A stretch of DNA of 64,000 bases from Naegleria gruberi. Taxonomy: Eukaryota. The stretch lies in NCBI GenBank assembly GCA_000004985.1, contig GG738856.1. One strand, 5' to 3'. The translations under genes and the position numbers were made by a program. The notes under the pieces were generated by a model that was not told the origin of the DNA, did no database searches, and saw nothing but the letters and a program-made list of their open reading frames with translations. Shown one piece after another: positions 1,212 through 43,101 of the stretch. The stretch's first letter is position 1. Each line of letters opens with the position of its first letter.

Positions 1212-3134
1212 ATGTTCCAACAAGTTCTTGTTAAAGGTCATCAACTGTTCGGGAACATTAAAAAAAATACCTCTAATTACATGATGAGCCATTTCACACA
1301 ACTGCCAGAAGAAATTATTGTGGAAATTTATAAATATGTATCCCATTCGGATATCATCCACAAAATGTCAAAAGTAGCTTCTGAGTGGAGAAGTGCTGTT
1401 TTTAAAGTAAAATCATTGGAACTTTTAGTTTCCGATAGAAAATTCACAACCGAAACATTACATTCTATATTTTACAGTCCACTTTTAAGTAATGTAGTTC
1501 TACTCTCTTTGGAAAATTGTGGATTGACTGATTCTGATATTAAAATGCTATGTGAAAGTTGTAATGACGGAAATTTTAGAAATTTAAAAGATTTATTGAT
1601 TGGAAGCAATCCTATTTCAATCAATTCGGTTATTGCCATTCATAATAGTGAATTGGTGAATATTTTAAAACAATTGTATTTTGAAGATACACTAATTACT
1701 GTAGATGGCATGAAAGAGTTCATTCATCAAGCTGAATCACATAAGAAAGTGGTATGGCTTTATTCGATTGGATATTTTTTAAGTATGGAAGGGAATAATG
1801 AAGAAAGTTTGGAATATTATAAAATGGCAGCCGAGTTGGGAGATGTAGATTCATTCTATGAACTGGGCGTAGCGTATAGCATGCAAGATATTGAGCAGAG
1901 TAAATATTGGCATGAAAAAGCTGTTAAACAAGGACATCAAAATGCTACAGCTTCTCTTGCAGAGATTTATCTTAAAAAGGGAGATTATAAGCAAGCTTTT
2001 GAGTTTTTTTCACAAGCAGGTGAAAAAGGATGTGCTTATTCAATGAAAAATATTGCGTTCATGTATGAAAATGGACAATATGTAGAACAAGATTATTCAA
2101 AATCAAAGAAATGGCTTCTGAAATCAACTGCATTTGGAGATATAGCTTTACACGAGTTGGGAATGAGATATTTGAATGGTAGCTTTGGATTTGAAAAAAA
2201 TTTGCAGAAAGCCATTAGATACTTTCAATCCCAATACCATCCAAGTGAGTCAAGCTATCAACTGGCACTCATGTATTTGGAAGGTAATGAATATATTCAA
2301 AAAGATGCTTTGAAAGCAATTGAAATATTGGAAAAAGCTTATGATACGAATGCAGCATTGCTACTAGGATCAATATATGCTAAGGGAGTCGAAGGAGTAG
2401 TTCCAAAAGATATTAAAAAGGCAATTGAAGCCTATTACAGAGCCTATAATAATCCAGAAGGAGCCCTACAGATTGGAATATTATATTTGGAAAAGTTCAA
2501 AACAGAGGAATCATATTTCCATTATATGGCTAAAGGAAAATTTGAAGAAGCAGCCAATGCAGGATCGGTAGAAGCCATGTTTAGGTTAGCAGAGCTTTTG
2601 AAAACAACTTTCAAAGATTTAGATGAATCAGACCGAAATTACTCTATGGCAGCTAGTAACAATCATGTTATAGCTCAATATCAACTAGCTCTGTATCACA
2701 AAGAGGGTATTAGAAATTTTGAGAAGAATCCTGAAAAGGCTAAATATTATTTTGAACAAGCAGCTAATCAAGGACATTCTGGAGCACAATATGAGTTGGC
2801 TGTAATATTATCCCCAGAAAATTACGAACAATCTTTAAAACTATTGAATTTGTCAATTGAGCAAGGCAACAGTTTTGCAATGGACATGTTGGCAAAATGG
2901 TACTTAAAAGGCACTGGTGTGGGAAAAGATGAAAAGAGAGCTGTCGAATTATTAGAAAAGTCATGTGAAATTGGAGGTTGCTCCAATAGCTATTATGAAC
3001 TCTCCTTACTTTATGAAGCTGGATTAGGTTGTGAGGTCAATAAGGAAAGAGCTGCAGAATTGAAAGGAAAGGCAATTGAATTGGGAGAAGCGAGATCTCT
3101 AATTGATCAATTCTTCTTTTTCGAAGATGCTTAA
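1212..3134 (+). CDS. F-box-like, LRR and Sel1-like repeat (SLR) protein, 640 aa
   Basis: The N-terminus LPEEIIVEIYKYV...WRSAV is F-box-like. There are at least 10 Sel1-type repeats of the form A..Y..AA..G...A...LG..Y..G. The ORF is continuous. Confidence 0.8.
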   Translation: MFQQVLVKGHQLFGNIKKNTSNYMMSHFTQLPEEIIVEIYKYVSHSDIIHKMSKVASEWRSAVFKVKSLELLVSDRKFTTETLHSIFYSPLLSNVVLLSLENCGLTDSDIKMLCESCNDGNFRNLKDLLIGSNPISINSVIAIHNSELVNILKQLYFEDTLITVDGMKEFIHQAESHKKVVWLYSIGYFLSMEGNNEESLEYYKMAAELGDVDSFYELGVAYSMQDIEQSKYWHEKAVKQGHQNATASLAEIYLKKGDYKQAFEFFSQAGEKGCAYSMKNIAFMYENGQYVEQDYSKSKKWLLKSTAFGDIALHELGMRYLNGSFGFEKNLQKAIRYFQSQYHPSESSYQLALMYLEGNEYIQKDALKAIEILEKAYDTNAALLLGSIYAKGVEGVVPKDIKKAIEAYYRAYNNPEGALQIGILYLEKFKTEESYFHYMAKGKFEEAANAGSVEAMFRLAELLKTTFKDLDESDRNYSMAASNNHVIAQYQLALYHKEGIRNFEKNPEKAKYYFEQAANQGHSGAQYELAVILSPENYEQSLKLLNLSIEQGNSFAMDMLAKWYLKGTGVGKDEKRAVELLEKSCEIGGCSNSYYELSLLYEAGLGCEVNKERAAELKGKAIELGEARSLIDQFFFFEDA

Positions 3135-14291: not shown

Positions 14292-17200
14292 GTGAACCAA
14301 TTCTTGGTTGTCTTCCAAACGCAAACAAGTCAACAACCACCAACAAGTGCACTCTACACTAACTCAAAGATTTCTTCATCAATTTTCATTATCCAATCTT
14401 TCATGATGTTATCATCATTATTCACCATCAATTTTAATAGGAAAACAATTCCTTCCAATCATCATCATCACCATGTAACTCTGCAGAGTGTGTTGAAAAG
14501 GTTTGGCTTTGCGTTGCTTGTTGTTGTACTTTTAATGATAATAACTCCCGCCTTTTCAACTTACACAACCGAAAAAACAAAACAAGAACATGATACGAAG
14601 GCTTTGCATAGGCTGGAAAAGTTTCATCAGCATCATCACGATGATTTAAATAACAATAATATTCTGCGAGTGGGAAGGAAAGGAAAGAATAGACTTTACC
14701 ATCATGATGAACGAAAGAAGAATCATCAAGGAAGAGGAGAAAAAGTTTTAAAACAACAACTTAGAAGTGTTTCCACTTCACAGGCTAGTGTTGTACCAAC
14801 ATTTTCATTACCTTCGGTGGTGAATTTATATGCCAATACGCCTCTGTATATTCCTATCATTTTGACTAACCAAGTAACATCAGGAACAACATTTGAATAT
14901 AGTTGGAAAGTTTACAACTCTACAAATGATATTACTTTAGCATCTGGAACTACACCAACAGTTTATATTGGAGAATATGATTTGGATCTTTTGAAAACAG
15001 TAACTTATTATCAGAATATTGTTGGATCAATATCATCACCTGTTTCTTCTTGGAATATTTATGTGGAGGTCACATCACGAGGAGATTATGGAATCATCAT
15101 TGCCCAATACAAAAAGACAATACCATTCAATTTGTACTTGTTGGGTGTACTTGCAACTATTGTGGGAGAGAATCAGGACCTGACCTTGATAACAGATCTG
15201 AAAACAAATCAAGTATTGAATGTTTCCATGTCGAAAATAACACCAAAAATTGAATATTATGATTCAGCAGTGAGTAAGATGGTAAAATCCAATGGACAAT
15301 GCTCGTGGACTTGTACCTACACTTTGATTTCTGGTTCAGTGAAGAATTGTTCCAACTTTGAAACATTTAGAACATTATCGAATAATAACAATTACTTACA
15401 AGTACTCATCCTTCTACTATGTCGAATCGGAAAAGTTTGAAATTCTTATACATAGCATACGTGTCAATGATTCAGTTCCAATCTTCCAAACAATTACATC
15501 CAACACTACCATGCAACAATATCATCCACCCAATCTTCCAATTACACTCACTCCAAATTTTGTCAATTACAACAATACTGTCAGAGTGGTGTTTTATTGG
15601 GAAGTTAATGGTTCACCATACCTCAAGCAAAACCTTACACTTGATTCCCTCTCTCCAAATAGCAAGTATGTGGCCAAGTGTGAAATTTACTTTCTGGGTA
15701 ATGTTCAGAGATACACATCAATGAGCTATACATTTTTCACAGCAAACAATATTACCAAGCCAAAATTCAATATTGTGACCAGTTCTGCTCTTGCATTTCA
15801 AACAAGAGTTCAAGTATCTGGCTATATTGGAGAATCAAGCAGAGGTCCACTTTGCATGACTGAAATCTTTGCAGAAACCACAAATTTTGGCAAAATCAGC
15901 TTGACCAATGGAAGACCTGTTTGCCTTCAATCGCTATTGCAAACCAGTACGGATGCAATTGCATTCCTTAGAATGCCACTCAGGAAAATCACTCTCTACG
16001 ATAATATCAAGCTCTCTTTTGTGGTAACAGATGGTATTGCACAGGAAACGTACTCTCTTACCACTTCTTCAAATCCTTCCACTATTTTGGATTACTTTTC
16101 ATCGTCCAATATTGTCAAATTAACAAGTAGTGTTTTAGACACGACATCAACTCTGTACGAAAACGATAGAACCTTGCTTCCTTCTCACATTGTTGTGGCT
16201 GCATCATTAATTATGAACTTTAAATCTTCTGCAGAAGAATCCAATTCAATGAATGTAGACTATTCAACACTGGCCTCTGGTTTAGGATCTTATCTATCGA
16301 GAATTTGTCCTTCTTCTTCAAACTATTCTCCATTGGAACAAAATTTGAATTGTATTGAAATAATTGGAAAATATGTATCAATTTCAGGTCTCACTACAAC
16401 ATTTGCTAGTACAACTCTCTCTCAGAGTATTAGTTCCAATATTGTTACATCTATATTTTATCAATTGAATCAACTCGTTTTCAATTCAATGAATGGACAA
16501 GGCACATTGCAAAATGGTGTGCTATTCCAAAAATTCTCCAGTGAAGGAGGTGAAACCTATGTCAGTCTCTTGATGGACATGCTACAAACAGCTTCCAGTT
16601 ATATTGCTCAAGATTATACTACAGTTCCAATCAATGGTACCTACGTTTCCATCAATAGTAATACTATAACTAGTACTATTTATGCAGTCTCCAAGATATT
16701 CCTCTCCAGTAGCTCCACTTCAACATTTAAATCATCAAGCTCACTCATTACCAAATTGGATTTATCTTCATTTCAATCAACAACATTATACTCACTCTCT
16801 TTGAATGGAGATGTTACTGTGCAGGTGCCACCTCTTTCATCTCTTCTTGGTAGTTTGACATCAAGCAGCTCAGTGGTCTTGTCACTTCAACTTTCACCTC
16901 AAAACAATGTCACAGATGCTGTCAATAGTACAATTATTTCTAGTAGAAAGGTTCAATTCCAGCTTTTGGATCCAAACACTGATAAGAAAATAGAGTTGAA
17001 AGATCTGAGTCAACCAATTACTCTTAAACTTCCAATCACCTATTCTTCCTTGTCAAATTCATCTCGTGACAGCTCCAAGTGTGTATTTTGGAGCGATTCT
17101 ACCAATGCATGGTCCAACACTGGTTGCGTTTTAAAACAAGCTACACAAAGTTATTTCTATTGTGAATGTAATCATACAACAACCTTTGCTGTGCTTTCTA

Positions 17201-19851
17201 CTACTCTCACAACTAGCTCAAATAATACTCAAATTCAAACAGCAGCATTCGATATGGTTCCACTTATTGTCATTTCCTCTGTAACTGGTGGTGTTATTCT
17301 AATCACTTTGGTTTTTTCTGGTGTTGTTCAAGCTTTTATTCATGTTTTGAAGAATGTTGACTCTGCTGAGTCAGGAGATTTATTCCTTCCAGCAGAATTC
17401 TTCCCAGTCAATGCCCAAATAGAAAAACCAAAAGAACCAGAAACAACAATAGAAGAGACAGAAAAGAAAGAAGAAAAAGAACCAAAGGTGAAGAAACGAT
17501 ACAAGGATCTTTCATTTGGTCTGAAAATTTTTGAATGTCTCAAAGAGTTTCACCCTGTTCTTGGTATTGTTTTTCCAAAGAAGTATTTCAAGAGTATTCA
17601 TATTAAGAGATTGGATCGTTTAATTATCCTAATGGATATTTTCATTACCACTAGTACTGTTAACGTTATTTTATTGTCAGTGAGCACTATTTCAAAAAAT
17701 TGGATATTCGTAATACCATCACTCATTTCGTTTGGCTGCTCTGTTATCAATCAAATACCAATTACATTATTATTTTGTAGGAAGCAAGCTATTTGGAAAG
17801 TTTGTGCCTATGGTTATAGCTGCGTGTTTGCGTTTGTTTGTTTGGTAATTTCTATTATTGCTAGTGCTGGAGTTTTTGTTTCCAATCAGTGGAATATGAA
17901 TATTTTGGACTGGCTGTATGCCACTATTCTAGGTGTTGCTTGGGACTTGATTGTTTTTAGAATTGTTTTGGCTTCCATTATTGCATTTTTGATTGAAGTT
18001 AAGGTTACTATTGACATGGGTATTGCAACATTCAGAAAAACTGATGAGGCAGAAAAAGAAGATCAACCATTACAAACAAAACGTATGGTAACTGTGCAAA
18101 ATAATGTAAGAATACCTATGCTATTTTCACAAAAGGAAAAGCCAAACATTCCTAAATTGAATCTCAAAGCAGTTGAAGGTGTTGCCACTCCAAAAGAAAA
18201 TCCTGTTAATGAGCTATCTTCAATGCATGCTTCGCCTACAGCAAGTGATACCACTTCCAGTAGTTCAGGTCTTGATTCCTATTTTTCACCACACAAAGCT
18301 AATCAACCAGCTGTGGAAGAAGCAAAAGAAACTTCTGCCAATGAGGAAGCCAAGACATCAAGTTCTGGTATGGAGCACTCGTCTGATAATTCAACTAGTA
18401 AGGAGGCAGAACAACAATGCATTACACCAGGATGTATTGTCGTTTTGGATTCTCCTGGCATTTCTCCAATATCTCCACTAATTCCAAAACAAGATCATGA
18501 TATGTCCTTTGTGGAGAAAGTCCAATTGAGAGATGAACTGAATATGAGCGAGGGTAAGGTTGATGAAGCCATCATCCCACCAGTGTTGGAGGATACCATG
18601 ATTATTGATGGAACTGAAAAGCAAGATAATGTGGAGGAAAGTACCAATGAACCTGTTCAAGATTCAGTTCCACAACAAGAAGAGGAAAAGCTAATAGAAC
18701 AAGCAGAGGATATCAATGAAGATTTGGAAATTGTGGAGCCAGCAATAGTTGAAACAGAACAAGTTCAACAACCTGTTGCTGAGGAAGTTTCTACAGAAGA
18801 GGTTCCAGAGGAAACAAGAGTATCTGATGAAGAAATTACCACCCCACATGAAGAGCCAGCAGTGGTCATTGTTGATGAAGTCACAAAGGAAGAAGTTGCA
18901 AATGTTGAACCAATTGTAACTGAATCTGTCCAAGAAACTACTCAATTGCCTGAAGTTGAACAAGTCACCGAAGCAACAATCGAACCAATAGAGCCAGTTA
19001 AGGAAGAATTACCAGAAATTGATACTACCAAGAAGAATCCTATCAAGATTTTGAAAGAAATTCTCAAAGAAAAGGATGTTCCTCCACCTGCTGCTGAAAG
19101 CCAAGAGCCAAAAGACAAATCAGAAAAGAATATTTTGGATTATATTGAACAAGTGACTGAACATGAAAAGAAGATTACATCTGAAAATTTGGAAAGTTTC
19201 ACATCAGAAATTCTTGAAAGATTATCTGGAAAATCAATTAGTGAAATTTTATTAATCTTGTCGGAGACTAAAGATCAACAATCAAGCAGCCAACAACAAT
19301 ACTCATCCCCACTTCGTACCAACTCACCAGTTGCAAGAAATGCTCTCCAAAAGAATACTCCAGGAAACAAATCAGCCAGAATGCTCAAGAGTGGTGGTAT
19401 TGAAATTGATAGATCAAGAAAACGTTCTCTCAGTTTCAACAAGTTGTATGGTATTGAAGAGGCTATGATCAAACCTCAAACAGATTTCTTTGATCAACTT
19501 CGTTTATATGTCAATCAAAATTATTCTGAAGAAGCCAAGGTTAAGGCATTGAATGAATTACTCTTCTTACAATGTATCTACCTCCACTATAAGATTATTT
19601 CAGTAACTCCTGAGGCAAGAAAGGAAATGGCAGAGCAAGTTGTTGCCACCTTTTTGAATGAAAAGGAACAATATCACATTAATATTGGTTTCTACAAGAG
19701 GGTACTTGCCTCATGTATTAGTGATGAAAATTTGAATGCCAACACATTTGAAAGAGCTTGTGAAATTATTGAAATTGCTTTAAAGCCTGTTATCAGCAAC
19801 TTTTTGAAGCATATTCAAGAAAAGCAAGCAAATGTAATGACAAGTGTTTAG
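14292..19851 (+). CDS. Large GPS/GAIN-motif multi-pass membrane receptor-like protein, which resembles adhesion-GPCR or polycystin. It is split into two overlapping ORFs by a frame break near 15343-15440.
   Basis: ORF 14292..15440 (signal or TM helix FGFALLVVVLLMIITPAFS, His-rich) and ORF 15358..19851 overlap in different frames. The extracellular S/T-rich N-glycosylated region ends in the GPS motif CVFWSDSTNAWSNTGCVLKQATQSYFYCECNHTTTFAVL. At least 5 TM helices follow, then an acidic E/P/V-rich tail. Confidence 0.7.
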
Positions 19852-19948: not shown

Positions 19949-22153
19949 TCAAACAAATTTATTGTAAAGATTGGATCTTTCAATTGTTTGTGCAGCCAAT
20001 TTCCAATCACTCAAGTCCAACGATAGGGCAACCTTACAATTGTTAACCATTTCACCTTTGTCCACAACGCCATCAACACTCTTTGTCAATACAATGGAAT
20101 ATAACAACTTTTGAATCTTTACACAACTCCAACCAAATAAATAGAACCACTTGTATGAGCACTTCCAATCAGAAATATAGTTATCCGAATCAGTTTCTTC
20201 CAATGGTGGTTCCCATTCTTGATAATATTGAATGAATTGTTTAAATCCTTCCGTTTGTAAAAAATTGGCTCCATCTCCACAAATTGTAATTGCAGTATCA
20301 ATGCCAAACGATGATTTGACAGCAGGTTGCCAATAATAATCTTCAGAAGTTAATTGATGAAGTGGTTTGCACGTTTCTGATAATTTGATTAATTCTCTCG
20401 GTTGTAAAAATTGAGAAATAACTCTCCAATCATAATACGAAAGTTTCACATTCTCATTAATCCTCAAAGATTTCTTAATTTCAACTGGAGGAGGTTCAAT
20501 AAACAGTTGCATTTCACTTCTTTCCTTTTCAAGTTTCATTTCAAATTCCTCTTTCGGATAACCAACAATAAATGCAAAATATTTCAACTTGTTCAAAACT
20601 TCCTTAACAGGAATCAAACTCGAAAAGATAAAATCCATAACATTAGATCTCCTTGAATTGTGAAGTTTTGCAATTTCTTCACACATTGGAATCCAAACAT
20701 TTGCTGAATTTGGCACATTTCCATAATAAATTTGTCTCATCAATTGATCTAAGTGTGTGAAAACTGGAATGACACTCATATTTCCATATTTCTTACAATC
20801 TTGACAGCAATATTCGTGAGCCATGTAGATTGTATCTCTAAATCTAGTAATTGTATCATTTTCGTACAAGTTTCTATTATATTCTGATAAATTCATGCAG
20901 AAAATGACATATTCGAAACCTTGTTCCATATATCGAGGATATTTCTTTCGTTCTGCTCTCTGACCAGCAACTAGACAGAAAGAAAGTTTGTGAGGTCCTA
21001 ATTGAAGTGTAAATTGTGAACATCCTGTCAATTTCTGTCTAGAAATGAAGAATAATCTCAAAATCAACTCTTCTTCCTCTTTCGTAAAACTATTCGAAGG
21101 TTTCTCCAATATTTCACACAAAGTTTCATGTGAAACTGATTTTAAAATTTCAATTCTATCAAAAATTGTTCCATGTTGTTGAGTTTGCAGCAGGTCATGA
21201 TATTTCCTGATTAATAATTTAACATCTTGCCTTTCAAAGAATAAAATTAAATTATTGTAAACTTGTTTTGTGATTAGTTTGAGAACAACTTTGCAATTCG
21301 AAGCCATTGGAATGTTATTCGAAAGTTTGTTCACTTGATCCACTGAAAATTCTCTATCCATTGGAATATCCTCAATTTCCTTTAAATCTTTCAAAATTTC
21401 CTGAATTATTTGTGGTTCAACATTGGCCAAAATTGGTGGAAGTTCATTAATGCACTGATTTGGAAATTTCAATTCGAATAACATTTGGTAGAATTGTTCT
21501 AACAAAATTATTGTATTGCTGAAAAAGAAATATAATGTAGAATAACTTTGATTTAAATCAAATGCTTGTTTTTCAATAACTTCAGGCTCCAAATTGTATC
21601 GAATAAGTTTCGACAAGGTCTTTCGTCCAGATTCTCCACTAGCAAGGAAAATAAATCTAATATGACTCTGATACACTTGCAATGCACTCGATTGCACTGA
21701 AAGTCTAGGTGAAGGAATCCCCGTAGAAAATCTTGGAGAAAGTGTTGGCGAAAGTTGACCAAGAAACCTTGGACTCATTGGCATTAATTGAACAGGAGAA
21801 AGGTTTCCAATACTACTATGTGAATTTCCACTACAACAATCACCAGATGCAACACTTCCTTCAACGCTGTTGAATGATTCGGCCGAGTGTAAAGTTGTTA
21901 AATTATTATTCGAAATTTCTCTTCTTCGGGGAGACCGCTGGTTTCGAATTTGATAAAAAGTTTCATGATCACTTCCACTGGCATTACTCTCTTGAATGGA
22001 TCTCAATTTAAGTAGTGCAACCTTCTTTTTAATGGAAGAAATCATGATTGACTTTTTTTTTGAAGATTTTCTCATACTTTCAATACGAAACTCTTCCAAA
22101 TTAGTTTCCATTCCATTCCTGAGGATTACACATATTGGCGGCATTTTCTTCAA
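19949..22153 (-). CDS. Heterotrimeric G-protein alpha-subunit homolog with degenerate nucleotide-binding motifs and a C-terminal extension bearing an F-box-like motif, 734 aa
   Basis: G-alpha signature blocks: FLASGESGRKT aligns with GAGESGKST; LTGCSQFTLQLGPHKLSFCLVAGQRAERKKY with TTGI...FDVGGQRSERKKW; VIFCMNLSEYNRNLYEND with IIFCVALSDYD; VIPVFTHLDQL with ILFLNKKDLF. The C-terminus contains LSYYDWRVISQFLQPRELIKLSETCKPL. Confidence 0.7.
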   Translation of the reverse strand: MKKMPPICVILRNGMETNLEEFRIESMRKSSKKKSIMISSIKKKVALLKLRSIQESNASGSDHETFYQIRNQRSPRRREISNNNLTTLHSAESFNSVEGSVASGDCCSGNSHSSIGNLSPVQLMPMSPRFLGQLSPTLSPRFSTGIPSPRLSVQSSALQVYQSHIRFIFLASGESGRKTLSKLIRYNLEPEVIEKQAFDLNQSYSTLYFFFSNTIILLEQFYQMLFELKFPNQCINELPPILANVEPQIIQEILKDLKEIEDIPMDREFSVDQVNKLSNNIPMASNCKVVLKLITKQVYNNLILFFERQDVKLLIRKYHDLLQTQQHGTIFDRIEILKSVSHETLCEILEKPSNSFTKEEEELILRLFFISRQKLTGCSQFTLQLGPHKLSFCLVAGQRAERKKYPRYMEQGFEYVIFCMNLSEYNRNLYENDTITRFRDTIYMAHEYCCQDCKKYGNMSVIPVFTHLDQLMRQIYYGNVPNSANVWIPMCEEIAKLHNSRRSNVMDFIFSSLIPVKEVLNKLKYFAFIVGYPKEEFEMKLEKERSEMQLFIEPPPVEIKKSLRINENVKLSYYDWRVISQFLQPRELIKLSETCKPLHQLTSEDYYWQPAVKSSFGIDTAITICGDGANFLQTEGFKQFIQYYQEWEPPLEETDSDNYISDWKCSYKWFYLFGWSCVKIQKLLYSIVLTKSVDGVVDKGEMVNNCKVALSLDLSDWKLAAQTIERSNLYNKFV

Positions 22154-22458: not shown

Positions 22459-23535
22459 TTATCCAATAATCTTGTCTTTCAAAGCGAGTCCTCCAATGAA
22501 GCCAACTCCATAGAATAAGAAGAGTGGATTGAATGCACCTAGGTTAGTAACAAATGGACCTGGACAAACACCAACAAGTCCCCAACCAATACCAAAGAGA
22601 GCTGCACCAGTAACAAGTTTCCAATCAACAACAGTAGATGTTGGGATATGTTGCTTACAACCCATACAAGTGAGTTCAGAACGAGAGGCACTTGGTACAA
22701 CGTACATGTTGAATACATACAGGTTTGGAAGAATAGCTCCCAAAGCAACACAAACAAGTGAAGGATCATAATTGTTTCCACCAAAATCAAAGAATCCAAG
22801 AACTTTCAATGGATTAGTCATTCCACTAAGTGCCAATCCAAGTCCAAATACAAATCCGTGCATAAATGGAAGATAATAGTCCAATTTTTGTTTGGTTGGT
22901 TCACTTAAATTCCAAATATTCATAATTATCAAAGCATAGGCAGAGAGAATCATAGCCAACAAGGACAATAAAGTCAAAGCATGTGAAGTTGTTGGATATT
23001 GAACGAATGGCAATAATGATGTATCCACTCCAACATTGACAATATTTCTAGAAACATAATCGGCACTTCCACCAAACAAAACCATCATCATGGTCACACC
23101 ACAGAAAACCATTGTGGCCACAAAACTTCTCTTGGACAAACGAGCCAAACCACAAATCATGTGTCCAGATGTGCAACCAGAACCAAGTTGTGTTCCAAAT
23201 CCAACAAACAATCCAGCCAATAAATAGAGTCCAACAGTTGATGGTGATGATAACAAGGAGAAGGCACTCGAAATTTTCATGAAATTATTAGGAGCTAAAT
23301 TCAAGGAGAAGGCAAACAATCCGGCCACTATCAGACCACAAAGATACAAAATCTTGTGAATCCATTCGGTATGATGATGAGTTGTAGCTTTGGCTGTTCC
23401 ATCAAAACATCCTCTCACAACACCACCAACAATACCCGACATGCCTGATATTCTTCCTTGAAGATAGGCATAGGCTCCAACAGATGCACCAATTAATAAG
23501 CCTCCAATAAGTGATTCAAATGGAGTAAATACCAT
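22459..23535 (-). CDS. YeeE/YedE-family putative thiosulfate or sulfur-compound transporter (TsuA-like), 358 aa, multi-pass membrane protein
   Basis: Two repeated sulfur-transport motifs: [27 protein letters not shown] and [20 protein letters not shown]. About 9 hydrophobic helices. The ORF is continuous. Confidence 0.75.
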
Positions 23536-24408: not shown

Positions 24409-27400
24409 ATGATGAGGAAACAAGAAAGTTTGATTAAAAAAACAGGGAATTTTGGTGATTTTTCTAATGCTGCCACAGCATCTATATCGGAAAATTCGGG
24501 ACAGAGGATGACACCTAGCCAATCGAAGGTTTATCCAAGTTTAATGGCAAGGAGTTCACCATTATCTTCATCTCCATACTGTTCTTCCAAATCATCAACA
24601 TCTGCATCCTGTAAATTATCCAATCAAATCACCAACACAAACAAGAATGTAAATAATCAAGATTCTGAAAATCAACAACAAAAAAGTATTGAAAGTGTAA
24701 AAAGTTCTTTTCACACTAGAACTCATTCAATACTTTCCCCTCAATGTAAAAACATTCAACCATCACAGTCAACTAGCTCATCAAAAACAAATGAAGGAAC
24801 AGTAACAAAACATGTAAAGTTTGTTATTCCAGAACGTAAAATTCCAAAACCAGAAACAAAAAAGGATATAACAACTACAGTTCCAAAGTTGGCAAGGGAA
24901 AAACAAAATCATCGTTACAATATTAATTTTTTTAATAGACCAACAATAACTCGAGATGGTCAAACAGTTCAACCTCCCCAAACCACTCAACCTTCTCCTT
25001 CATCTTTACAAAATAAGAGAAGTTTTGAAAATTTCAAATCTAGCTCTTCAAAATACGAGACATCAAAAAAACAAAAGAAAGACATCAATATGATAAACTT
25101 TCAAAAGAATTTATTTGAAATTCAGAAAGAGTTGTCAGAACAACCTTTCATCTCAAATGCCAACCCACTGACACCATCTCCAGAAAGCAATGGTCACTCA
25201 TCAGTATTTAACAACAACAATACTGTTCAGAAGGAGGAAAATCTCAAAATGCAAACCCCTCAATACTCTAACACCAATTTCATGATACTATCAGACTCTC
25301 TAGAAAGTATTACTATAGCAGAGGATTTATTAACTATCGACGATTCAATAGTGGAAGAAGCTATAAGCAAGGTCTTTAATTCAAAGCTTGGAAGATCTTT
25401 TTCATCAAGTACCAAAGAGAAGTACCTTCGTCATCTAATCAATCCCGAGGAAATTTCAAGGCTGGGAATTAAAGATTTATTTGGAGAATATTACCCCTCA
25501 GTGGGATATTTTACATTGAAAGATTCCAAGCCAATTTTCAAGCAAGTCAGCGATGGTTCTTTGACAAACATTACTGAAGGAACAGGGAAATCAATATATT
25601 ACTCCTACTCTAGATTAGCAAGATTGTTAATGAGTTTGGATTTAGGACGAGCCATGATGTTTGTCATCTTTTCTGAAGATGATTGGGATCATGAGGAAAA
25701 ACGAGTTTTAATTGAAAAAGCTTCTATAGATGGATTTAAGCATTCCTCTATCGAGTACAAATTCTTTGGTACAAGTAATTCTGGTATTAATGGGCATACA
25801 GCTCTGTTCATTGACACTCGATTGAATTTTGCTAAAATACATGACCTGCTGGGAGATTTTAGTGAGTGTGCCAAAGCTGGACCAAGGAAAGCTTTCAGTC
25901 GTATTGCTCTTGCATTAGGAAAAAGTTTTCAGAGTTTAGTCGAGTTGAAAAAGGAAGAATTATGGGTTCTGTACGATGAAGAGGATTATCCAGGTGTTGG
26001 TATGTTTTTTATTTCATGAAATTCAATAATTCTTACTTGAAAAGATGGTGCAGGCTTCATGCATGAGGATTACTTTCAAGATATTTTGAGAAATACAATT
26101 TGCACACCTTATTTTGAAACAAGGAAAAACACAACTGAAGCAGTATTTATGGATTGTAAAATTGAGGAAATTGTTGCAATGCAATTCAGAGCATTGGGAA
26201 TGAAGGGCGTCTTTCAGTCTATTCCCGATGAATATTGGAAGGAACTTCAAACGAGGCATGGCTTTCCAGATACTGTAAAATGCGTGGCAAGACCTTCAAT
26301 GATCAAATTTATGGGAAATTCGGAAGTTTATAGACATTTTGATGTTTTAAATGTTTCTAGAATTCAAGGAGGATCCATTAATAGAACATTCATGTCATGT
26401 ATGCTTAGAAGAACAACTAATAAGGAGGCCATGCAACAACTTTTCGTTAAAATGTTGGATGAGTACATCAAGAGTGAATCCAATATTCTAGATACAAAAT
26501 TCCTCTACAACTCTCTCCTTTCGAATGAAGTTTTCGATAATGGAGATTCCGTTTATAGGACAATCAAGAATTTACTCTTGGCAGGATTTGGAATGGAAAA
26601 TCCATTTGTTTACAAGTACATTAAGAAGAGAATCAAGGCAAGATTTCAATCCATGATTGATAACAAGCTGTGTCTCAAGATGAAATCAAAATTCTCAGTA
26701 ACTCTGATGGGAGTCATAGATGAGAGTGGTGAGCTAAATGCGGATGAGGTTTATATTCCCTGCCTCAAATTGCAAGAGCAATTAATGAGGGATTATTACA
26801 AATTGAAAGAGGTGATTGTCTATAGACATCCACTTGCTTACGAAGGAGATATTGCCAAGTTGAAATTGAGAAAAGATCCATGTAATGAATTTCTAGCATC
26901 TAGATCTAATGTCATTGTATTCCCAAAGGTTTTCAAAGAGAAATCTCCTCATCAATATCTAGCAGGAGGTGATTTAGGTATGTTTTTATTTTGAATTTTT
27001 CAAATTGACTCAATTCTTTAGATGGTGATGCTTATGAAGTTGTTTTTGATATGGAAATTTTGAAATTATTCGATAAGCATCCAAAACCAATTGATTACGA
27101 TGAAGGGAAGCAATCCAGTGGAGCAACCTCACAATCTATTCAACCTGTTACCAAGTTACAACCTTGTGATATTATCAGGGAACATGTAAAATGTTTTATT
27201 CAAAAACATACTCATACAGGTCTCCTTTTCTACTTTAATACTATTGCCAGAGACTCTGACGATATCAAATTAAAGGTTGATCTAGCCAAAGCATATTCCC
27301 ATTCTATAGATGCTATGAAGGGCTTTGAGCAGGATTTTAACAAACTCATTGAAAGAGCACGAGCTTTACCAGTTCCATACTGGTATCAACAATGGAAGTC

Positions 27401-27887
27401 GGTAAAGGTTTCAAAATGGGCACCAACTGATGCAAACATTACAATATTTGAAAATTTAATGTTAAATAAGGTTGTACATGCCTATCAGAAAATTGAATTT
27501 AAAAAGCCAGTAGAGATTGATCCTGAATTAATTGTTGAAACGCCAAAGGACACAGTCATGTGGAAGCTTGATTTTGATAACACGTATCAAAAATGGAACG
27601 AGTATTGGAAATCTAAAAAGAGAGTATTCGAGTCAACAACACAAGTAGAATTTACATTCAATGATAGATTCTTCAATGAACGGCTCAATTCAATTATGGC
27701 CAACACGATCTCTCACCAAAAGAACAAGTACCATAGCGATGAACCAGATTGGCACCAATTATTTTGTGGAAGTACTGTTGGAAAACAACTCGTAGCAAAA
27801 GCAAGTTATTGGATGCAACTTGCCTACGAGAAGGAAAAGGAACTTGCACAAAAGAAAAGAAGGGAGAGTTCAAGAAATCAATTCTAA
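24409..27887 (+). CDS. RNA-dependent RNA polymerase (eukaryotic RDR/QDE-1 family) with three exons and a low-complexity N-terminal region
   Basis: ORFs 24409..26019, 26059..26994 and 27051..27887 are colinear. They are separated by GTATGT...AG introns of about 45-50 nt near 26000-26044 and 26978-27021. Splicing the second intron reconstitutes the catalytic motif YLAGGDL|DGDAYEVVF (DLDGD). Confidence 0.85.
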
Positions 27888-33850: not shown

Positions 33851-34867
33851 ATGGGTAAACATGAAAGCAAGGAATATTCACATTTTTCAAATGACGTTTT
33901 ATGGGAAATTTTATCATTTCTCGAGAAGGATTACAAATTTCAAATATTTTCGTTCGGTTTAGTTTCGAAACAGTGGTATGCTTTCATAAAAGAACGACTG
34001 AAATTTTCAGTGACATGTGGAAATGATAAGAAATTGAAAGGTGACTTTCTACAAAATATTACAAGTTGTAAAGTGATGAGAAAAAGTGAAAAAGTGAAAC
34101 TGAGGATTGAAAAGTTGAAGAATTTGACATATTTGGATATTAGTGAGAATTATATTTTTGATAAATTGGTCAATTGGGGAAAATCTTTTGGAAAATTGGA
34201 CAAATTGACCCATCTCAATATTTCAAAGAATCGAATTGAAAGAAAAGGAATCAAATATCTTACCCGAATGAAACAATTAAGAATTTTGGATATTAGTTGT
34301 AATAATATCGATTATTGTGGTCTTTTCCTTATTTGTAACATGAACCAATTGACCAATCTAAATATCAGTCGGAATTTTATCAAAGAGAAATCTATTTATC
34401 TTGTTGATTTGAATCAATTAACAACTCTCATTGTGAGACAGAATGATATTACACAAGTTTCATTTCTTTCAAACTTTACAAAATTGACTAATTTGGATGT
34501 CAGTCAAAATCTTATTGGAAATGAAGGAATTAAATTTGTGGGAGAAATGAAACATTTAACATGTCTTAGGGCTTGTTCGACTGGATTTGATGAAGAAGGA
34601 GCAAAATGCATTGGTCAATTGAGCCAGTTGACTTGTTTGGACGTTAGTCATAATAGTATTAAGAATCAGGGAGTTGAATTTATTAGTCAACTGAGCTACT
34701 TGACAGATCTTACCGTTATTCATTGTCATATAGATCTTGAAGGTGTCGAATTTATTACTAAAATGAATCAGTTGACCAGATTAGACATTAGTCTCAATCT
34801 TTTTGGAACACCTAAAAAGATAGCTACGGAACTATTGAGTGCAAATAAGGAATATTTCAATATATAA
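33851..34867 (+). CDS. Protein with an F-box-like N-terminus and leucine-rich repeats of the 24-residue ribonuclease-inhibitor-like type, 338 aa
   Basis: The N-terminus VLWEILSFLEK...LVSKQWYAFI is F-box-like. About 10 tandem 24-aa LRRs follow: L.QLT.LDIS.N.I...G.KFI..M. It is a paralog of 62109..63310. Confidence 0.75.
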   Translation: MGKHESKEYSHFSNDVLWEILSFLEKDYKFQIFSFGLVSKQWYAFIKERLKFSVTCGNDKKLKGDFLQNITSCKVMRKSEKVKLRIEKLKNLTYLDISENYIFDKLVNWGKSFGKLDKLTHLNISKNRIERKGIKYLTRMKQLRILDISCNNIDYCGLFLICNMNQLTNLNISRNFIKEKSIYLVDLNQLTTLIVRQNDITQVSFLSNFTKLTNLDVSQNLIGNEGIKFVGEMKHLTCLRACSTGFDEEGAKCIGQLSQLTCLDVSHNSIKNQGVEFISQLSYLTDLTVIHCHIDLEGVEFITKMNQLTRLDISLNLFGTPKKIATELLSANKEYFNI

Positions 34868-41205: not shown

Positions 41206-43101
41206 TTAGGGTGTGTTGGTGAGGAAGATTTTACCAACGAGGAGGTGCATGGTTTTCATCTTTTTAAAGTAATTTTCATTGAGGTGGGATGGAAGGGCTA
41301 GTTGGATTTGATTCGAGTCTATTTGAATGTCATTGATGGCCACAAAGTGGTTGACCTGATCTCTGAGCTGTTCTCGAAGAGAATGTACTGAGCAGATGGA
41401 TTTGGAAAGAGTTACAATCATGTGTTCCTTGACAGAGTCTATCGAATTGAATTGTTGAGTTCTTTCATCGAATTGGTAGAGTTTGACATCATCGAGTGAA
41501 CGAGTAACAATAATTGGATTCGGTCCAAAATATTCATTCACTGATTGGGTTCTGTTTCTTCTCCGTTTCGGTCTGGATTTATGAGTGACGAATTGGCTTG
41601 GTTCGACATTAATTACTTTACAGGTCTTCTTTCGGAGAGTGTTTTCTAATGGAGCTATCAATTTTTCATCCAAACACAAAAGATGTGTAATTTTGAATTG
41701 CTCCACCATGGCACTTAGTGTGATTAGCCCTGTATGGTCAACTCTTCCAGGTGTATTAATCATCCAAAATGTCTTCTTTCCACCAGTATTAATTTTAGTA
41801 TTAATGTTTTTGTAATTTTTGAAAATATTCTTGAAAATTCTCAAATGATCTGCAATAGTTGTACCAGTTGTATCTCCAAAGTTGTAAATATACTTGTTTG
41901 GTGAGTTGTGGACGAGTTCTTTCAGTTTGGAATTGATAGTATTGCACTTGGTGGATAATTTTCCTTGCAACTCGGAGAAGATAAAGTTATTGGAACTGTA
42001 TGTGAAAGCTACACTTCCTGGTAGTGTCATATTATTTTGTCCCATATCCATATCGGAATAGAAACACAATCTCTGATTTTCACTCAGAGCAAAATGCAAA
42101 AAGTAATTGGTTATTGTGGATTTTCCCCTGTCAACTCCTCCAACTACCATAATTCTTGGATTTTCATCCTCCTCAGTAATGGATTGATACAATTTGAATC
42201 TATCCATAAATAATTTACCATCTCCATATGGAATATTTGTACAATCGCCAGTCAACTCTTGCAACTTGTCAATGGTAAATTTGAAATTGTGAAATGCATC
42301 CATATTTGAGGCATTGAAATTAATAGAGTATGAAAAGTCTTCGAGAGCACTTCTATAATCCCCAGTCATGTAAAATGAAACTCCTCTATAAAAGTGAAAC
42401 TCTCCCAACAAGACTCTATCTCCCTCAGTCATGATTAATTTCGAATAATCACCAATTGCATTGCCATACATTTGTCTCTGATAGTAAATCTGAGCTCTCA
42501 AACTCAGTGCTCTATTATTATTTGGGTCAATATCCAACATCCAATTCAACGATTCAAGAGCTTCTTGGCTTTGATCCATCCTCAACAAACAATCAACCTT
42601 ACAATTCATCACATCCAACATGAGCTCTCTAGTAATCATTGGACTCACTTCCAACTCATCCTTACTCAAAAGGAAAAAATCATCAATAGCCCTCAAACAA
42701 TTCTCATTCTCCCTGTTCAAATTATATCTTTGAATAATTTCCAAAATATTTTCAATTCTTTCCATTAAATTATTTTCCATTTCCAAAATTGCAAAATTAT
42801 TATCAGTATGGTCTTGATTTTCCATCACATCACCACCACCAATACTACTACTAGCAGCCATTGAAATGGAGGAATTTAATATTTTACCATTCAGAGTTGA
42901 ATAATTAAAGTCCGATGATGAAGACAATCCAACAATATTATTCAAGTAATTATTATTATTGCAATTGTTGATGAGTAATAATTTCCTCATTGAATGCTTC
43001 AAAAAACTCCTTTTAAAACCATCACCACCACCAGCACCACCAATACGACTACGGATTAAAACATTCATCACGTTCATTCTCTTCTTCATATTTTTTTGCA
43101 T
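41206..43101 (-). CDS. Polynucleotide 5'-kinase of the Clp1/Grc3/NOL9 family, Grc3/NOL9-like, with an N-terminal TPR-like region, 631 aa
   Basis: P-loop RIMVVGGVDRGKSTITNYFLHFAL, DMDMGQNNMTLPGSVAF, and FWMINTPGRVDHTGL...ITHLLCLDEK, the INTPG motif typical of Grc3/NOL9. Confidence 0.65.
   Translation of the reverse strand: MQKNMKKRMNVMNVLIRSRIGGAGGGDGFKRSFLKHSMRKLLLINNCNNNNYLNNIVGLSSSSDFNYSTLNGKILNSSISMAASSSIGGGDVMENQDHTDNNFAILEMENNLMERIENILEIIQRYNLNRENENCLRAIDDFFLLSKDELEVSPMITRELMLDVMNCKVDCLLRMDQSQEALESLNWMLDIDPNNNRALSLRAQIYYQRQMYGNAIGDYSKLIMTEGDRVLLGEFHFYRGVSFYMTGDYRSALEDFSYSINFNASNMDAFHNFKFTIDKLQELTGDCTNIPYGDGKLFMDRFKLYQSITEEDENPRIMVVGGVDRGKSTITNYFLHFALSENQRLCFYSDMDMGQNNMTLPGSVAFTYSSNNFIFSELQGKLSTKCNTINSKLKELVHNSPNKYIYNFGDTTGTTIADHLRIFKNIFKNYKNINTKINTGGKKTFWMINTPGRVDHTGLITLSAMVEQFKITHLLCLDEKLIAPLENTLRKKTCKVINVEPSQFVTHKSRPKRRRNRTQSVNEYFGPNPIIVTRSLDDVKLYQFDERTQQFNSIDSVKEHMIVTLSKSICSVHSLREQLRDQVNHFVAINDIQIDSNQIQLALPSHLNENYFKKMKTMHLLVGKIFLTNTP

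What the first reader, a model, noticed from the sequence alone, without database searches (positions are those of the whole stretch)
19949..22153. G-alpha homolog with degenerate P-loop, DxxG and NKxD motifs, fused to a C-terminal F-box-like segment
Blocks colinear with heterotrimeric G-alpha are clear: GESG-RKT, TGCSQF...LVAGQRAERKKY, VIFCMNLSEY, FTHLD. The catalytic signatures are altered: GKS/T becomes GRKT, DVGGQ becomes LVAGQ, NKKD becomes THLD. This suggests a non-hydrolysing or non-binding pseudo-GTPase, reminiscent of plant extra-large G proteins. The extra 170 C-terminal residues contain an F-box-like motif, hinting at a link to SCF ubiquitin ligases.
Basis: partly seen in the sequence, partly recalled or inferred. 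Interest (0 to 1): 0.6.

Follow-up and report, generated by a model that had tools for sequence, protein, structure and literature searches.

The report
Degenerate G-alpha protein with F-box-like tail
This Naegleria gruberi gene encodes a real relative of G-protein alpha subunits that has lost the residues needed to hold magnesium and GTP and carries a weak F-box-like motif; it is a moderately interesting variant of known "decoy" G-alpha proteins.

Summary
The ORF (real ATG at 22144; 731 aa) is identical to Naegleria gruberi XP_002679780.1 / NAEGRDRAFT_47338, an uncharacterised "predicted protein". It matches Pfam G-alpha at 106 bits (E 2e-30), but only over profile positions 18-270 of 333. 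The model of residues 160-480 superposes on solved G-alpha structures.

Lys46, Ser47, Thr181, Asp200, Asn269 and Lys270 (Gαi1 numbering) are replaced. Arg178, Gly203, Gln204, Asp272 and the switch II core GQRxERKK are kept. α4, β6/G5 and the receptor-coupling α5 helix are not detectable.

The same substitutions occur in the only close relative found, a metagenomic protein at 32% identity. They are therefore old and selected, not sequencing errors. The protein is most likely a nucleotide-independent, receptor-uncoupled pseudo-GTPase.

The F-box-like motif (residues 578-606) is statistically real (Pfam E about 1e-3; 1 of 2000 shuffles) and scores like genuine F-boxes in the same window. However, it is below Pfam's cut-off, lacks the Leu-Pro start, has no homologue support and could not be modelled. 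A link to SCF ubiquitin ligases is a plausible inference only. The resemblance to plant extra-large G proteins is functional analogy, not membership.

The parts
19949..22144 (-). Complete single-exon coding sequence. It runs from the ATG at 22144 to the stop codon at 19949-19951 and encodes 731 aa (XP_002679780.1 / NAEGRDRAFT_47338).
21680..22144 (-). N-terminal region, residues 1-155. It has a basic predicted helix at about residues 16-55, followed by a Ser/Pro-rich, probably disordered linker with six SP dipeptides. There is no Gly2 myristoylation site and no αN helix next to β1.
   Evidence: AF2 pLDDT is below 50 for residues 54-151.
20720..21673 (-). G-alpha-like domain, residues 158-475. 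It comprises β1, a degenerate P-loop, an enlarged all-helical domain, switch I, β2-β3, switch II, α3, β5 and αG.
   Evidence: Pfam PF00503: 106.4 bits, profile positions 18-270 of 333. AF2 pLDDT is 70-93. Foldseek top 50 hits are all G-alpha, TM 0.55-0.65.
21617..21643 (-). G1/P-loop ASGESGRKT, residues 168-176. Lys46 is replaced by Arg and Ser47 by Lys (Gαi1 numbering).
   Evidence: Column counts: K in 26 of 27 and S/T in 26 of 27 other G-alphas.
21047..21589 (-). All-helical domain, about residues 186-366. It is some 60 residues longer than in Gαi1 and contains the subfamily block FFxRQDVKLLxRxYH.
21023..21040 (-). Switch I RQKLTG, residues 369-374. The arginine finger (Arg178) is kept. The Mg-ligand Thr181 is replaced by Leu.
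   Evidence: T in 46 of 49 others. P0002 also has Leu.
20939..20974 (-). G3/switch II LVAGQRAERKKY, residues 391-402. Asp200 is replaced by Leu and Gly202 by Ala. Gly203, Gln204 and the RxERKK core are kept.
20747..20758 (-). G4 THLD, residues 463-466. Asn269 is replaced by Thr and Lys270 by His. Asp272 is kept.
20444..20719 (-). Residues 476-567, which occupy the place of α4, β6/G5 and α5. No G-alpha homology is detectable and the model is of low confidence. KYFAFIVG at residue 521 is a possible β6 remnant, judged by eye only.
   Evidence: Pfam stops at profile position 270 of 333. My own HMM stops at 283 of 355. AF2 pLDDT is below 50 with no β6 strand.
20327..20443 (-). F-box-like motif, residues 568-606 (LSYYDWRVISQFLQPRELIKLSETCKPLHQLTSEDYYWQ). 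The profile match covers residues 578-606, corresponding to helices 2-3.
   Evidence: PF12937: 17.2-18.9 bits, E 0.0044-0.0013. PF00646: E 0.08. An independent small HMM gave its only hit in the protein here, reached by 1 of 2000 shuffles.
19952..20326 (-). C-terminal tail, residues 607-731. It is predicted to be mostly helical and has no detectable relatives.

Best explanation
NAEGRDRAFT_47338 is a highly diverged member of the large Naegleria G-alpha expansion that has become a pseudo-GTPase.

**Shown**
- It keeps the Ras-like β1-β5 core, the inserted helical domain and the switch II sequence GQRxERKK.
- The residues that hold Mg2+ and the phosphates are replaced: Lys46 to Arg, Ser47 to Lys, Thr181 to Leu, Asp200 to Leu.
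- Two of the three conserved NKxD (G4) residues, which contact the guanine base, are replaced: Asn269 to Thr, Lys270 to His.
- The G5/α5 part that couples canonical G-alphas to receptors is not detectable.
- There is no N-terminal lipidation signal.
- The same replacement pattern is fixed in its one known relative, so it is a selected state rather than decay.

**Inferred**
- The protein does not run a Mg-GTP on/off cycle and is not receptor-driven.
- It acts as a nucleotide-independent binding module, using the retained switch II surface for a G-protein-pathway partner such as Gβγ or an RGS domain.
- Its C-terminal F-box-like motif probably docks it to Skp1-Cul1. The G-alpha-like domain would then present its partner for ubiquitination, or the protein itself would be turned over. 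This last step is the least secure inference.
For: **G-alpha membership and fold**
- Pfam 106.4 bits, E 2.2e-30.
- PDB sequence hits are all G-alpha.
- The AF2 model of residues 160-480 has pLDDT 70-93.
- Foldseek top 50 PDB hits are all G-alpha, E from 4e-10, TM 0.55-0.65.

**Motif losses**
- Per-column comparison with up to 50 other G-alphas (27-50 with a residue in a given column) shows that only this protein and P0002 combine K46R, S47K/R, T181L, D200L, N269T and K270H/F.

**Selection rather than error**
- P0002 comes from an independent ENA metagenome contig. It is 32% identical, E 3.9e-27, and has the same pattern (GENGRRT, RTKLVG, LAGGQR, TFFD).
- The target has an intact 731-codon ORF in a 34% GC genome.

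**Loss of the receptor-coupling end**
- Pfam stops at profile position 270 of 333.
- A canonical G-alpha HMM built here stops at 275-283 of 355 in both proteins.

**F-box-like motif**
- PF12937 E 0.0013-0.0044 and PF00646 E 0.08 on the same stretch.
- An independent HMM of 10 classic F-boxes hits only residues 578-606. It scores 12.0 bits, equal to a genuine F-box+LRR protein of the same window, and is reached by 1 of 2000 shuffles.
- Genuine F-boxes in this window score only 20.5 and 22.2 bits in Pfam.

**Precedent**
- Arabidopsis XLG2 lacks P-loop and DVGG residues and binds GTPγS 100-1000 times more weakly. It still binds RGS1 and Gβγ independently of nucleotide (bioRxiv 10.1101/795088).
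- Deviant catalytic motifs in some Naegleria G-alphas have been noted before (PMC8584482, citing Anantharaman et al. 2011).
Against: - No biochemical data exist. Loss of nucleotide binding is inferred from residues only.
- Naegleria G-alphas tolerate odd P-loops. N. fowleri Gα1 has an unusual P-loop and still hydrolyses GTP slowly (PMC9283941).
- The catalytic Arg and Gln and the guanine-specificity Asp are retained.
- The F-box-like match is below Pfam's curated cut-off (17-19 bits against 24.3) and covers only helices 2-3. The Leu-Pro/Glu-Leu start that contacts Skp1 reads Leu-Ser-Tyr-Tyr.
- The C-terminal tails of the target and P0002 show no significant similarity, so the fusion has no evolutionary support.
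- The single-sequence AF2 model of the tail is unusable, at pLDDT 33.6.
- No orthologue was seen in other Naegleria proteomes.
- The AF2 model of the G-alpha part was driven by an alignment of G-alphas, so the fold match is partly circular.
Confidence: 0.55

Rival explanations
1. It is a decoy G-alpha without any ubiquitin link. The degenerate G-alpha-like domain binds or sequesters Gβγ or RGS proteins independently of nucleotide, as plant XLG2 does. The C-terminal 255 residues are then a lineage-specific helical extension, and the F-box resemblance has no role in Skp1 binding.
For: - All the G-alpha and motif evidence applies equally here.
- The F-box match is sub-threshold and lacks helix 1 and the Leu-Pro start.
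- The relative P0002 ends without any comparable tail.
- XLG2 is a precedent (10.1101/795088).
Against: - The F-box-like hit is the best Pfam hit for the tail and the only hit in the protein with an independent HMM.
- It scores like genuine local F-boxes, with an empirical p of about 5e-4.
Confidence: 0.27
2. It is still a working nucleotide-binding switch with an unconventional pocket. An Arg-Lys P-loop could supply positive charge in place of Mg2+, so binding or hydrolysis would be Mg-independent or use another cofactor.
For: - Arg178, Gly203, Gln204 and Asp272 are retained.
- The replacements are specific and conserved in both relatives (R-[K/R] in the P-loop, Leu at both Mg-ligand positions) rather than random.
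- N. fowleri Gα1 works with an unusual P-loop (PMC9283941).
Against: - The Walker A lysine, the Ser/Thr Mg ligand, Thr181, Asp200, Asn269 and Lys270 are all changed together.
- G5 is undetectable.
- The comparable XLG2 is essentially nucleotide-free (10.1101/795088).
Confidence: 0.12
3. It is a decaying, functionless paralogue from the G-alpha expansion, or an annotation or assembly artefact that fuses two genes.
For: - It is the only copy in N. gruberi.
- No orthologue was found in other Naegleria proteomes.
- No expression data are available here.
Against: - The ORF is 731 codons long and uninterrupted in an AT-rich genome.
- The specific substitution pattern and subfamily blocks (FFxRQDVKLL, IFCxNLSEYN, DQxxRQIYYG) are conserved at 32% identity in an independent sequence.
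- There is no stop codon or frame change between the G-alpha-like part and the tail.
Confidence: 0.06

Closest known systems
Canonical heterotrimeric G-protein alpha subunits (Pfam PF00503; e.g. human Gαi1, N. fowleri Gα7 PDB 6ne6)
   Same: - Ras-like core with an inserted all-helical domain.
- The arginine finger, the catalytic Gln and the switch II core GQRxERKK are retained.
- The IFCxxLSEY block after switch II is present.
   Different: - The P-loop Lys and Ser, Thr181, Asp200, Asn269 and Lys270 are replaced.
- α4, β6/G5 and α5 are not detectable.
- There is no N-terminal lipidation site and no adjacent αN helix.
- It has a 155-residue Ser/Pro-rich N-terminus and a tail of about 255 residues.
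Plant extra-large G proteins (XLG1-3; XLG2 'decoy' G-alpha)
   Same: - A G-alpha-derived domain with degenerate nucleotide-binding motifs inside a larger protein.
- Expected nucleotide-independent partner binding.
   Different: - Independent origin, in a heterolobosean rather than a plant.
- Different substitutions. XLG2 has K46A, G42E and a replaced DVGG.
- XLGs carry an N-terminal NLS and Cys-rich extension and keep the G-alpha C-terminus. This protein has a C-terminal extension and lacks a recognisable α5.
F-box proteins (Pfam clan of PF00646 / PF12937), substrate receptors of SCF ubiquitin ligases
   Same: - A stretch of about 40 residues with the hydrophobic pattern of F-box helices 2-3, the Cys-Lys pair and the closing Trp.
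- Its score is comparable to two genuine F-box proteins in the same window.
   Different: - It is below the curated threshold.
- It has no Leu-Pro start.
- It is located near the C-terminus instead of the N-terminus.
- The partner domain would be a G-alpha-like domain rather than WD40, LRR, Kelch or Sel1 repeats.
- Skp1 binding is untested.
Metagenomic relative P0002 (ENA ERZ27315067, contig k141_470715, 470 aa)
   Same: - The same degenerate motif set and the same subfamily-specific blocks.
- The same loss of detectable α4-β6-α5.
   Different: - It has an N-terminal hydrophobic (membrane-anchor-like) helix instead of the Ser/Pro-rich region.
- It has a short tail without a significant F-box-like match.
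- Its gene ends 86 bases from the contig end, so the 3' end is uncertain.

Membership tests
G-protein alpha subunit (PF00503) | Profile match above the curated family threshold | tested here: met
   106.4 bits against 48.8, E 2.2e-30.
G-protein alpha subunit (PF00503) | Ras-like domain with an all-helical domain inserted between G1 and switch I | tested here: met
   The AF2 model of residues 160-480 has pLDDT 70-93. Foldseek top 50 hits are all G-alpha, TM 0.55-0.65. Caveat: the model was built from an alignment of G-alphas.
G-protein alpha subunit (PF00503) | G1 P-loop GxxxxGK[S/T] | tested here: not met
   The sequence is ASGESGRKT: Lys is replaced by Arg and Ser by Lys.
G-protein alpha subunit (PF00503) | Switch I arginine finger and Mg-ligand threonine (RxxT) | tested here: not met
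   Arg is kept, but Thr181 is replaced by Leu (RQKLTG). T occurs in 46 of 49 other G-alphas.
G-protein alpha subunit (PF00503) | G3 DxxGQ | tested here: not met
   The sequence is LVAGQ: Asp200 is replaced by Leu, while Gly203 and Gln204 are kept.
G-protein alpha subunit (PF00503) | G4 NKxD | tested here: not met
   The sequence is THLD; only the Asp is kept.
G-protein alpha subunit (PF00503) | G5 (TCAT) and the C-terminal α5 helix that couples to receptors | tested here: not met
   Pfam alignment ends at profile position 270 of 333. A canonical HMM ends at 283 of 355. AF2 gives no β6 strand and low confidence. A remnant diverged beyond detection cannot be excluded.
G-protein alpha subunit (PF00503) | N-terminal myristoylation/palmitoylation signal and αN helix adjoining β1 | tested here: not met
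   The protein starts MPPICV, with no Gly2. Residues 54-151 are predicted disordered.
G-protein alpha subunit (PF00503) | Binds and hydrolyses GTP; binds Gβγ | not testable with these tools
   This needs biochemistry.
F-box (PF00646 / PF12937) | Profile match above the curated threshold | tested here: not met
   PF12937: 17.2-18.9 bits against 24.3. PF00646: 13.3 bits against 20.5.
F-box (PF00646 / PF12937) | Statistically significant, uniquely placed similarity to the F-box profile | tested here: met
   E 0.0013-0.0044. An independent HMM gives its single hit at residues 578-606, reached by 1 of 2000 shuffles, with a score equal to a genuine F-box of the same window.
F-box (PF00646 / PF12937) | Helix 1 with the Leu-Pro-x-Glu start that contacts Skp1 | tested here: not met
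   The sequence is L-S-Y-Y-D-W. Both profile alignments begin only at model position 14.
F-box (PF00646 / PF12937) | Three-helix F-box fold | tested here: inconclusive
   Short helices are predicted at residues 573-579, 582-591 and 600-603, but pLDDT is below 62. The single-sequence model has pLDDT 33.6.
F-box (PF00646 / PF12937) | Binds Skp1 | not testable with these tools
   This needs an interaction assay or a complex prediction.
Plant extra-large G proteins (XLG) | N-terminal extension with NLS and a Cys-rich region, and a G-alpha-like domain at the C-terminus | tested here: not met
   The N-terminus is Ser/Pro-rich with no Cys-rich region. The G-alpha-like domain is central and is followed by about 255 residues.
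Plant extra-large G proteins (XLG) | Common descent with plant XLGs | tested here: inconclusive
   The only close relative is an unnamed metagenomic protein. All other hits are equally distant G-alphas. No phylogeny was made.

The most novel reading that the evidence does not exclude
A G-alpha-derived pseudo-GTPase serves as the substrate-recognition module of an SCF ubiquitin ligase. This would directly wire heterotrimeric G-protein components (Gβγ, RGS or 7TM-RGS proteins) to ubiquitin-dependent turnover. I found no description of this domain combination in the literature available here.
Probability: 0.2. Interest if true: 0.7.

Novelty: new variant of a known kind. Interest (0 to 1): 0.4.

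Why it matters
Naegleria has one of the largest G-alpha repertoires known: 44 in N. gruberi according to PMC8584482. The roles of its aberrant members are unknown.

This would be a second, independently evolved "decoy" G-alpha besides plant XLGs. It has a conserved alternative pocket: Arg-Lys/Arg in the P-loop and Leu at both Mg-ligand positions. That would show that nucleotide-independent G-alpha scaffolds are a recurrent solution.

If the F-box-like tail really binds Skp1, it would be a direct physical link between G-protein signalling and SCF ubiquitination. If not, this is just one more diverged paralogue of limited general interest.

Tried and rejected
1. **Word-indexed homologue searches.** These returned only the query itself or P0002, and inconsistently so.
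2. **JGI metagenome scan with the P0001+P0002 alignment.** It returned 80 loci, all canonical G-alphas matched over residues ~358-472. A local tblastn of the helical domain, N-terminus and tail against them found nothing beyond L001.
3. **Single-sequence AF2 of the tail.** pLDDT was 33.6, so it was unusable and no fold search was run on it.
4. **AFDB Foldseek.** The library was unavailable.
5. **PDB sequence search with the tail.** There were no hits. Controls showed this is uninformative: genuine F-boxes from the same window hit nothing or only Cdc4 at E 0.13.
6. **Shared F-box start in P0002.** The 'YYDxW' resemblance in the MAFFT alignment suggested that P0002 shares the start of the F-box-like motif. 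I rejected this as evidence because BLASTP of the two tails finds nothing.
7. **RGS domain in the neighbouring gene.** By eye, the C-terminus of the neighbouring GPS-motif gene looked like an RGS domain. I rejected this for lack of support: no Pfam hit, no PDB hit, and BLASTP against RGS4 gave E 0.65.
8. **Anantharaman et al. 2011 (PMC3396428).** This is the most relevant prior survey, but it is not held. I could not check whether this protein or architecture is described there.
9. **Paralogues in the window.** None were found.
Full report
**What is there**

The window is Naegleria gruberi DNA. The minus-strand ORF at 19949-22153 begins mechanically at a TTG. The first ATG is at 22144. The resulting 731-aa product is identical over its whole length to XP_002679780.1 / EFC47036.1 / NAEGRDRAFT_47338 / UniProt D2V7P2, called 'predicted protein' or 'uncharacterized protein'. 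It is a single uninterrupted exon in a 34% GC region. No paralogue lies in the window. Small ORFs on the opposite strand (60-92 aa) show nothing gene-like.

**The G-alpha homology is real but incomplete**

- Pfam G-alpha (PF00503) matches at 106.4 bits, E 2.2e-30, against a curated cut-off of 48.8. The match covers ORF residues 161-478 and profile positions 18-270 of 333.
- phmmer against PDB sequences hits only G-alpha chains. The strongest stretch is switch I to α3.
- An AF2 model built with 51 G-alpha sequences from the exhaustive search has pLDDT 70-93 for residues ~160-480. It shows β1, a long helical insert, β2-β3, switch II, α3, β5 and αG.
- Foldseek against the PDB returns only G-alpha structures among the top 50, with E from 4e-10 and target-normalised TM 0.55-0.65. 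This is partly circular, because the alignment consisted of G-alphas.
- Beyond residue ~480 the model is unreliable and shows no β6 strand.
- A canonical G-alpha HMM that I built from 25 full-length hits plus Gαi1 aligns the target only to model positions 31-283 of 355. It aligns its relative only to 36-275.
- α4, β6 with the G5 motif, and the receptor-coupling α5 helix are therefore not detectable in either protein.

**The catalytic signatures**

The table uses Gαi1 numbering. The third column gives the commonest residue among the other 50 G-alphas in the alignment, of which 27-50 have a residue in a given column.

| Position | This protein | Commonest residue in other G-alphas |
|---|---|---|
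| Lys46 | Arg | K in 26 of 27 |
| Ser47 | Lys | S/T in 26 of 27 |
| Thr181 | Leu | T in 46 of 49 |
| Asp200 | Leu | D in 48 of 50 |
| Gly202 | Ala | G in 49 of 50 |
| Asn269 | Thr | N in 38 of 49 |
| Lys270 | His | K in 43 of 48 |

- Retained residues are Arg178, Gly203, Gln204, Asp272 and the switch II core RxERKK.
- From established knowledge of G-alpha structures, Lys46, Ser47, Thr181 and Asp200 hold the β/γ-phosphates and Mg2+. Asn269 and Lys270 contact the base.
- Losing all of them together argues against a canonical Mg-GTP cycle.
Thr181 to Leu is an additional loss.

**Not a sequencing error, and not random decay**

An exhaustive phmmer search of 1.84 billion representatives found one close relative, P0002.

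- P0002 is 470 aa, E 3.9e-27, 32% identity over query residues 163-489. It comes from a 3979-base ENA metagenome contig.
- All other hits were ordinary G-alphas at E of 9e-8 or weaker.
- P0002 carries the same set of changes: GTGENGRRT, RTKLVG, LAGGQRSERKKW and TFFD.
- It also carries the same subfamily-specific blocks: FFxRQDVKLLxRxYH, IFCxNLSEYN and DQ[LM][MI]RQIYYG.
- Both Mg-ligand positions are Leu in both proteins, and the P-loop pair is Arg-[Lys/Arg] in both. This is a conserved alternative configuration.
- No other sequence in the comparison combines these changes.
- No orthologue from another Naegleria proteome appeared. N. fowleri is reported to have 13 G-alphas (PMC9283941), against 44 in N. 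gruberi (PMC8584482).

**The ends of the protein**

- The N-terminal 155 residues are Ser-rich (19% Ser) with six SP dipeptides, and are predicted disordered after a basic helix.
- There is no Gly2 for myristoylation and no αN helix adjoining β1.
- P0002 instead has a hydrophobic helix near its N-terminus.

**The F-box-like motif**

- Pfam F-box-like (PF12937) matches ORF residues 581-609 at 17.2 bits (E 0.0044) for the whole protein. For the tail alone it gives 18.9 bits (E 0.0013). PF00646 matches the same stretch at E 0.08.
- All of these are below the curated cut-offs.
- For calibration, the same 64-kb window encodes two genuine F-box proteins. One is F-box + Sel1 repeats at 1212-3134 and the other is F-box + LRR at 33851-34867. 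Their F-boxes reach only 20.5 and 22.2 bits.
- That 70-residue segment scores 12.0 bits. The two local controls score 12.0 and 16.3 bits. One of 2000 shuffles reaches the target's score.
- The similarity is therefore real at roughly p = 1e-3.
- It covers only helices 2-3 (…FLQPRELIKLSETCKPLHQLTSEDYYW). The helix-1 start reads L-S-Y-Y-D-W instead of L-P-x-E-[IL].
- There is no support from relatives, because the tails of the target and P0002 are not significantly similar.
- There is no usable structure either: pLDDT is below 62 in the full model and 33.6 in the single-sequence model.
- The negative PDB sequence search is uninformative, as the controls show.

**Surroundings**

- The gene converges, with 97 bases between stop codons, on a 1497-aa ORF (15358-19851, + strand). 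That ORF has a clear GPS motif (Pfam E 5e-12) followed by five or six hydrophobic segments.
- N. fowleri has 28 seven-transmembrane RGS proteins, some with GPS motifs (PMC9283941). I therefore tested whether the neighbour's C-terminus is an RGS domain.
- Pfam, PDB and BLASTP against RGS4 all gave nothing.
- Any functional link between the two genes is unsupported.
- Upstream lies a YeeE/YedE-like sulphur-transport membrane protein.

**How it most likely works**

Shown:
- It is a G-alpha-derived domain with a conserved, non-canonical pocket.
- It has no detectable receptor-coupling end.
- It has no lipid anchor signal.
- Switch II is retained.

Inferred:
- It acts independently of nucleotide, as a binding module for a G-protein-pathway partner. 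The precedent is Arabidopsis XLG2, which binds GTPγS 100-1000 times more weakly than a canonical G-alpha yet still binds RGS1 and Gβγ (10.1101/795088).
- More weakly inferred, the F-box-like motif recruits Skp1-Cul1. The G-alpha-like domain would then present a partner for ubiquitination.

Rivals and my confidences (best explanation 0.55):
- A decoy without any SCF link: about 0.27.
- An unconventional but active nucleotide switch: about 0.12.
- A decaying or artefactual gene: about 0.06.

**Comparison and novelty**

- The protein passes the Pfam family threshold for G-alpha but fails the G1, G2 (Thr), G3, G4, G5/α5 and lipidation features. It is a G-alpha homologue, not a functional G-alpha subunit in the usual sense.
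- It works like plant XLGs but is not one, because its architecture and origin differ.
- It is F-box-like but not a demonstrated F-box protein.
- Degenerate G-alphas in Naegleria have been mentioned before (PMC8584482, citing Anantharaman et al. 2011, which I could not read).
- The Pfam G-alpha assignment for this protein already exists in databases.
- I found no paper describing a G-alpha plus F-box architecture.
- I rate it a new variant of a known kind, with interest 0.4.

Noticed in passing
window 15358-19851 (+), possibly with an upstream exon in ORF 14292-15440: This is a large gene convergent with the target, with 97 bases between stop codons. It has a clear GPS (GPCR proteolysis site) motif (Pfam E 5e-12), then five or six hydrophobic segments and a long acidic tail. 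It resembles the GPS-bearing 7TM-RGS proteins described in N. fowleri, but no RGS domain could be detected (Pfam, PDB, BLASTP against RGS4).
   Followed up: partly
window 1212-3134 (+) and 33851-34867 (+): Two genuine F-box proteins lie in the same window: F-box + Sel1 repeats and F-box + LRR. Their F-boxes only just reach Pfam's cut-off (20.5 and 22.2 bits). Naegleria F-boxes are therefore weakly scored in general, and F-box genes look frequent in this genome.
   Followed up: partly
window 24409-27887 (+): ORF 26059-26994 matches the RNA-dependent RNA polymerase family (Pfam RdRP, E 3.6e-33) over only part of the profile. The adjacent same-strand ORFs 24409-26019 and 27051-27887 have no Pfam hit. 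They may be further exons of one RdRP gene split by introns.
   Followed up: no
window 41206-43101 (-) and 55235-56368 (+): Two genes carry the CLP1-type P-loop polynucleotide kinase domain (E 4e-27 and 1e-41). The first is fused to TPR repeats.
   Followed up: no
L001 2481-3893 (P0002) and L001 1046-2334: The only close relative sits on a 3979-base metagenome contig (about 37-41% GC over the first 3 kb) next to two RCC1-repeat genes. It has an N-terminal hydrophobic helix, suggesting a membrane-anchored version of this degenerate G-alpha. Its gene ends 86 bases from the contig end, so its true C-terminus is uncertain.
   Followed up: partly
window 22459-23535 (-): The upstream neighbour is a YeeE/YedE-like membrane protein (DUF6691 E 2.7e-25, Sulf_transp E 2.5e-07). 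This family is mostly known from bacteria.
   Followed up: no
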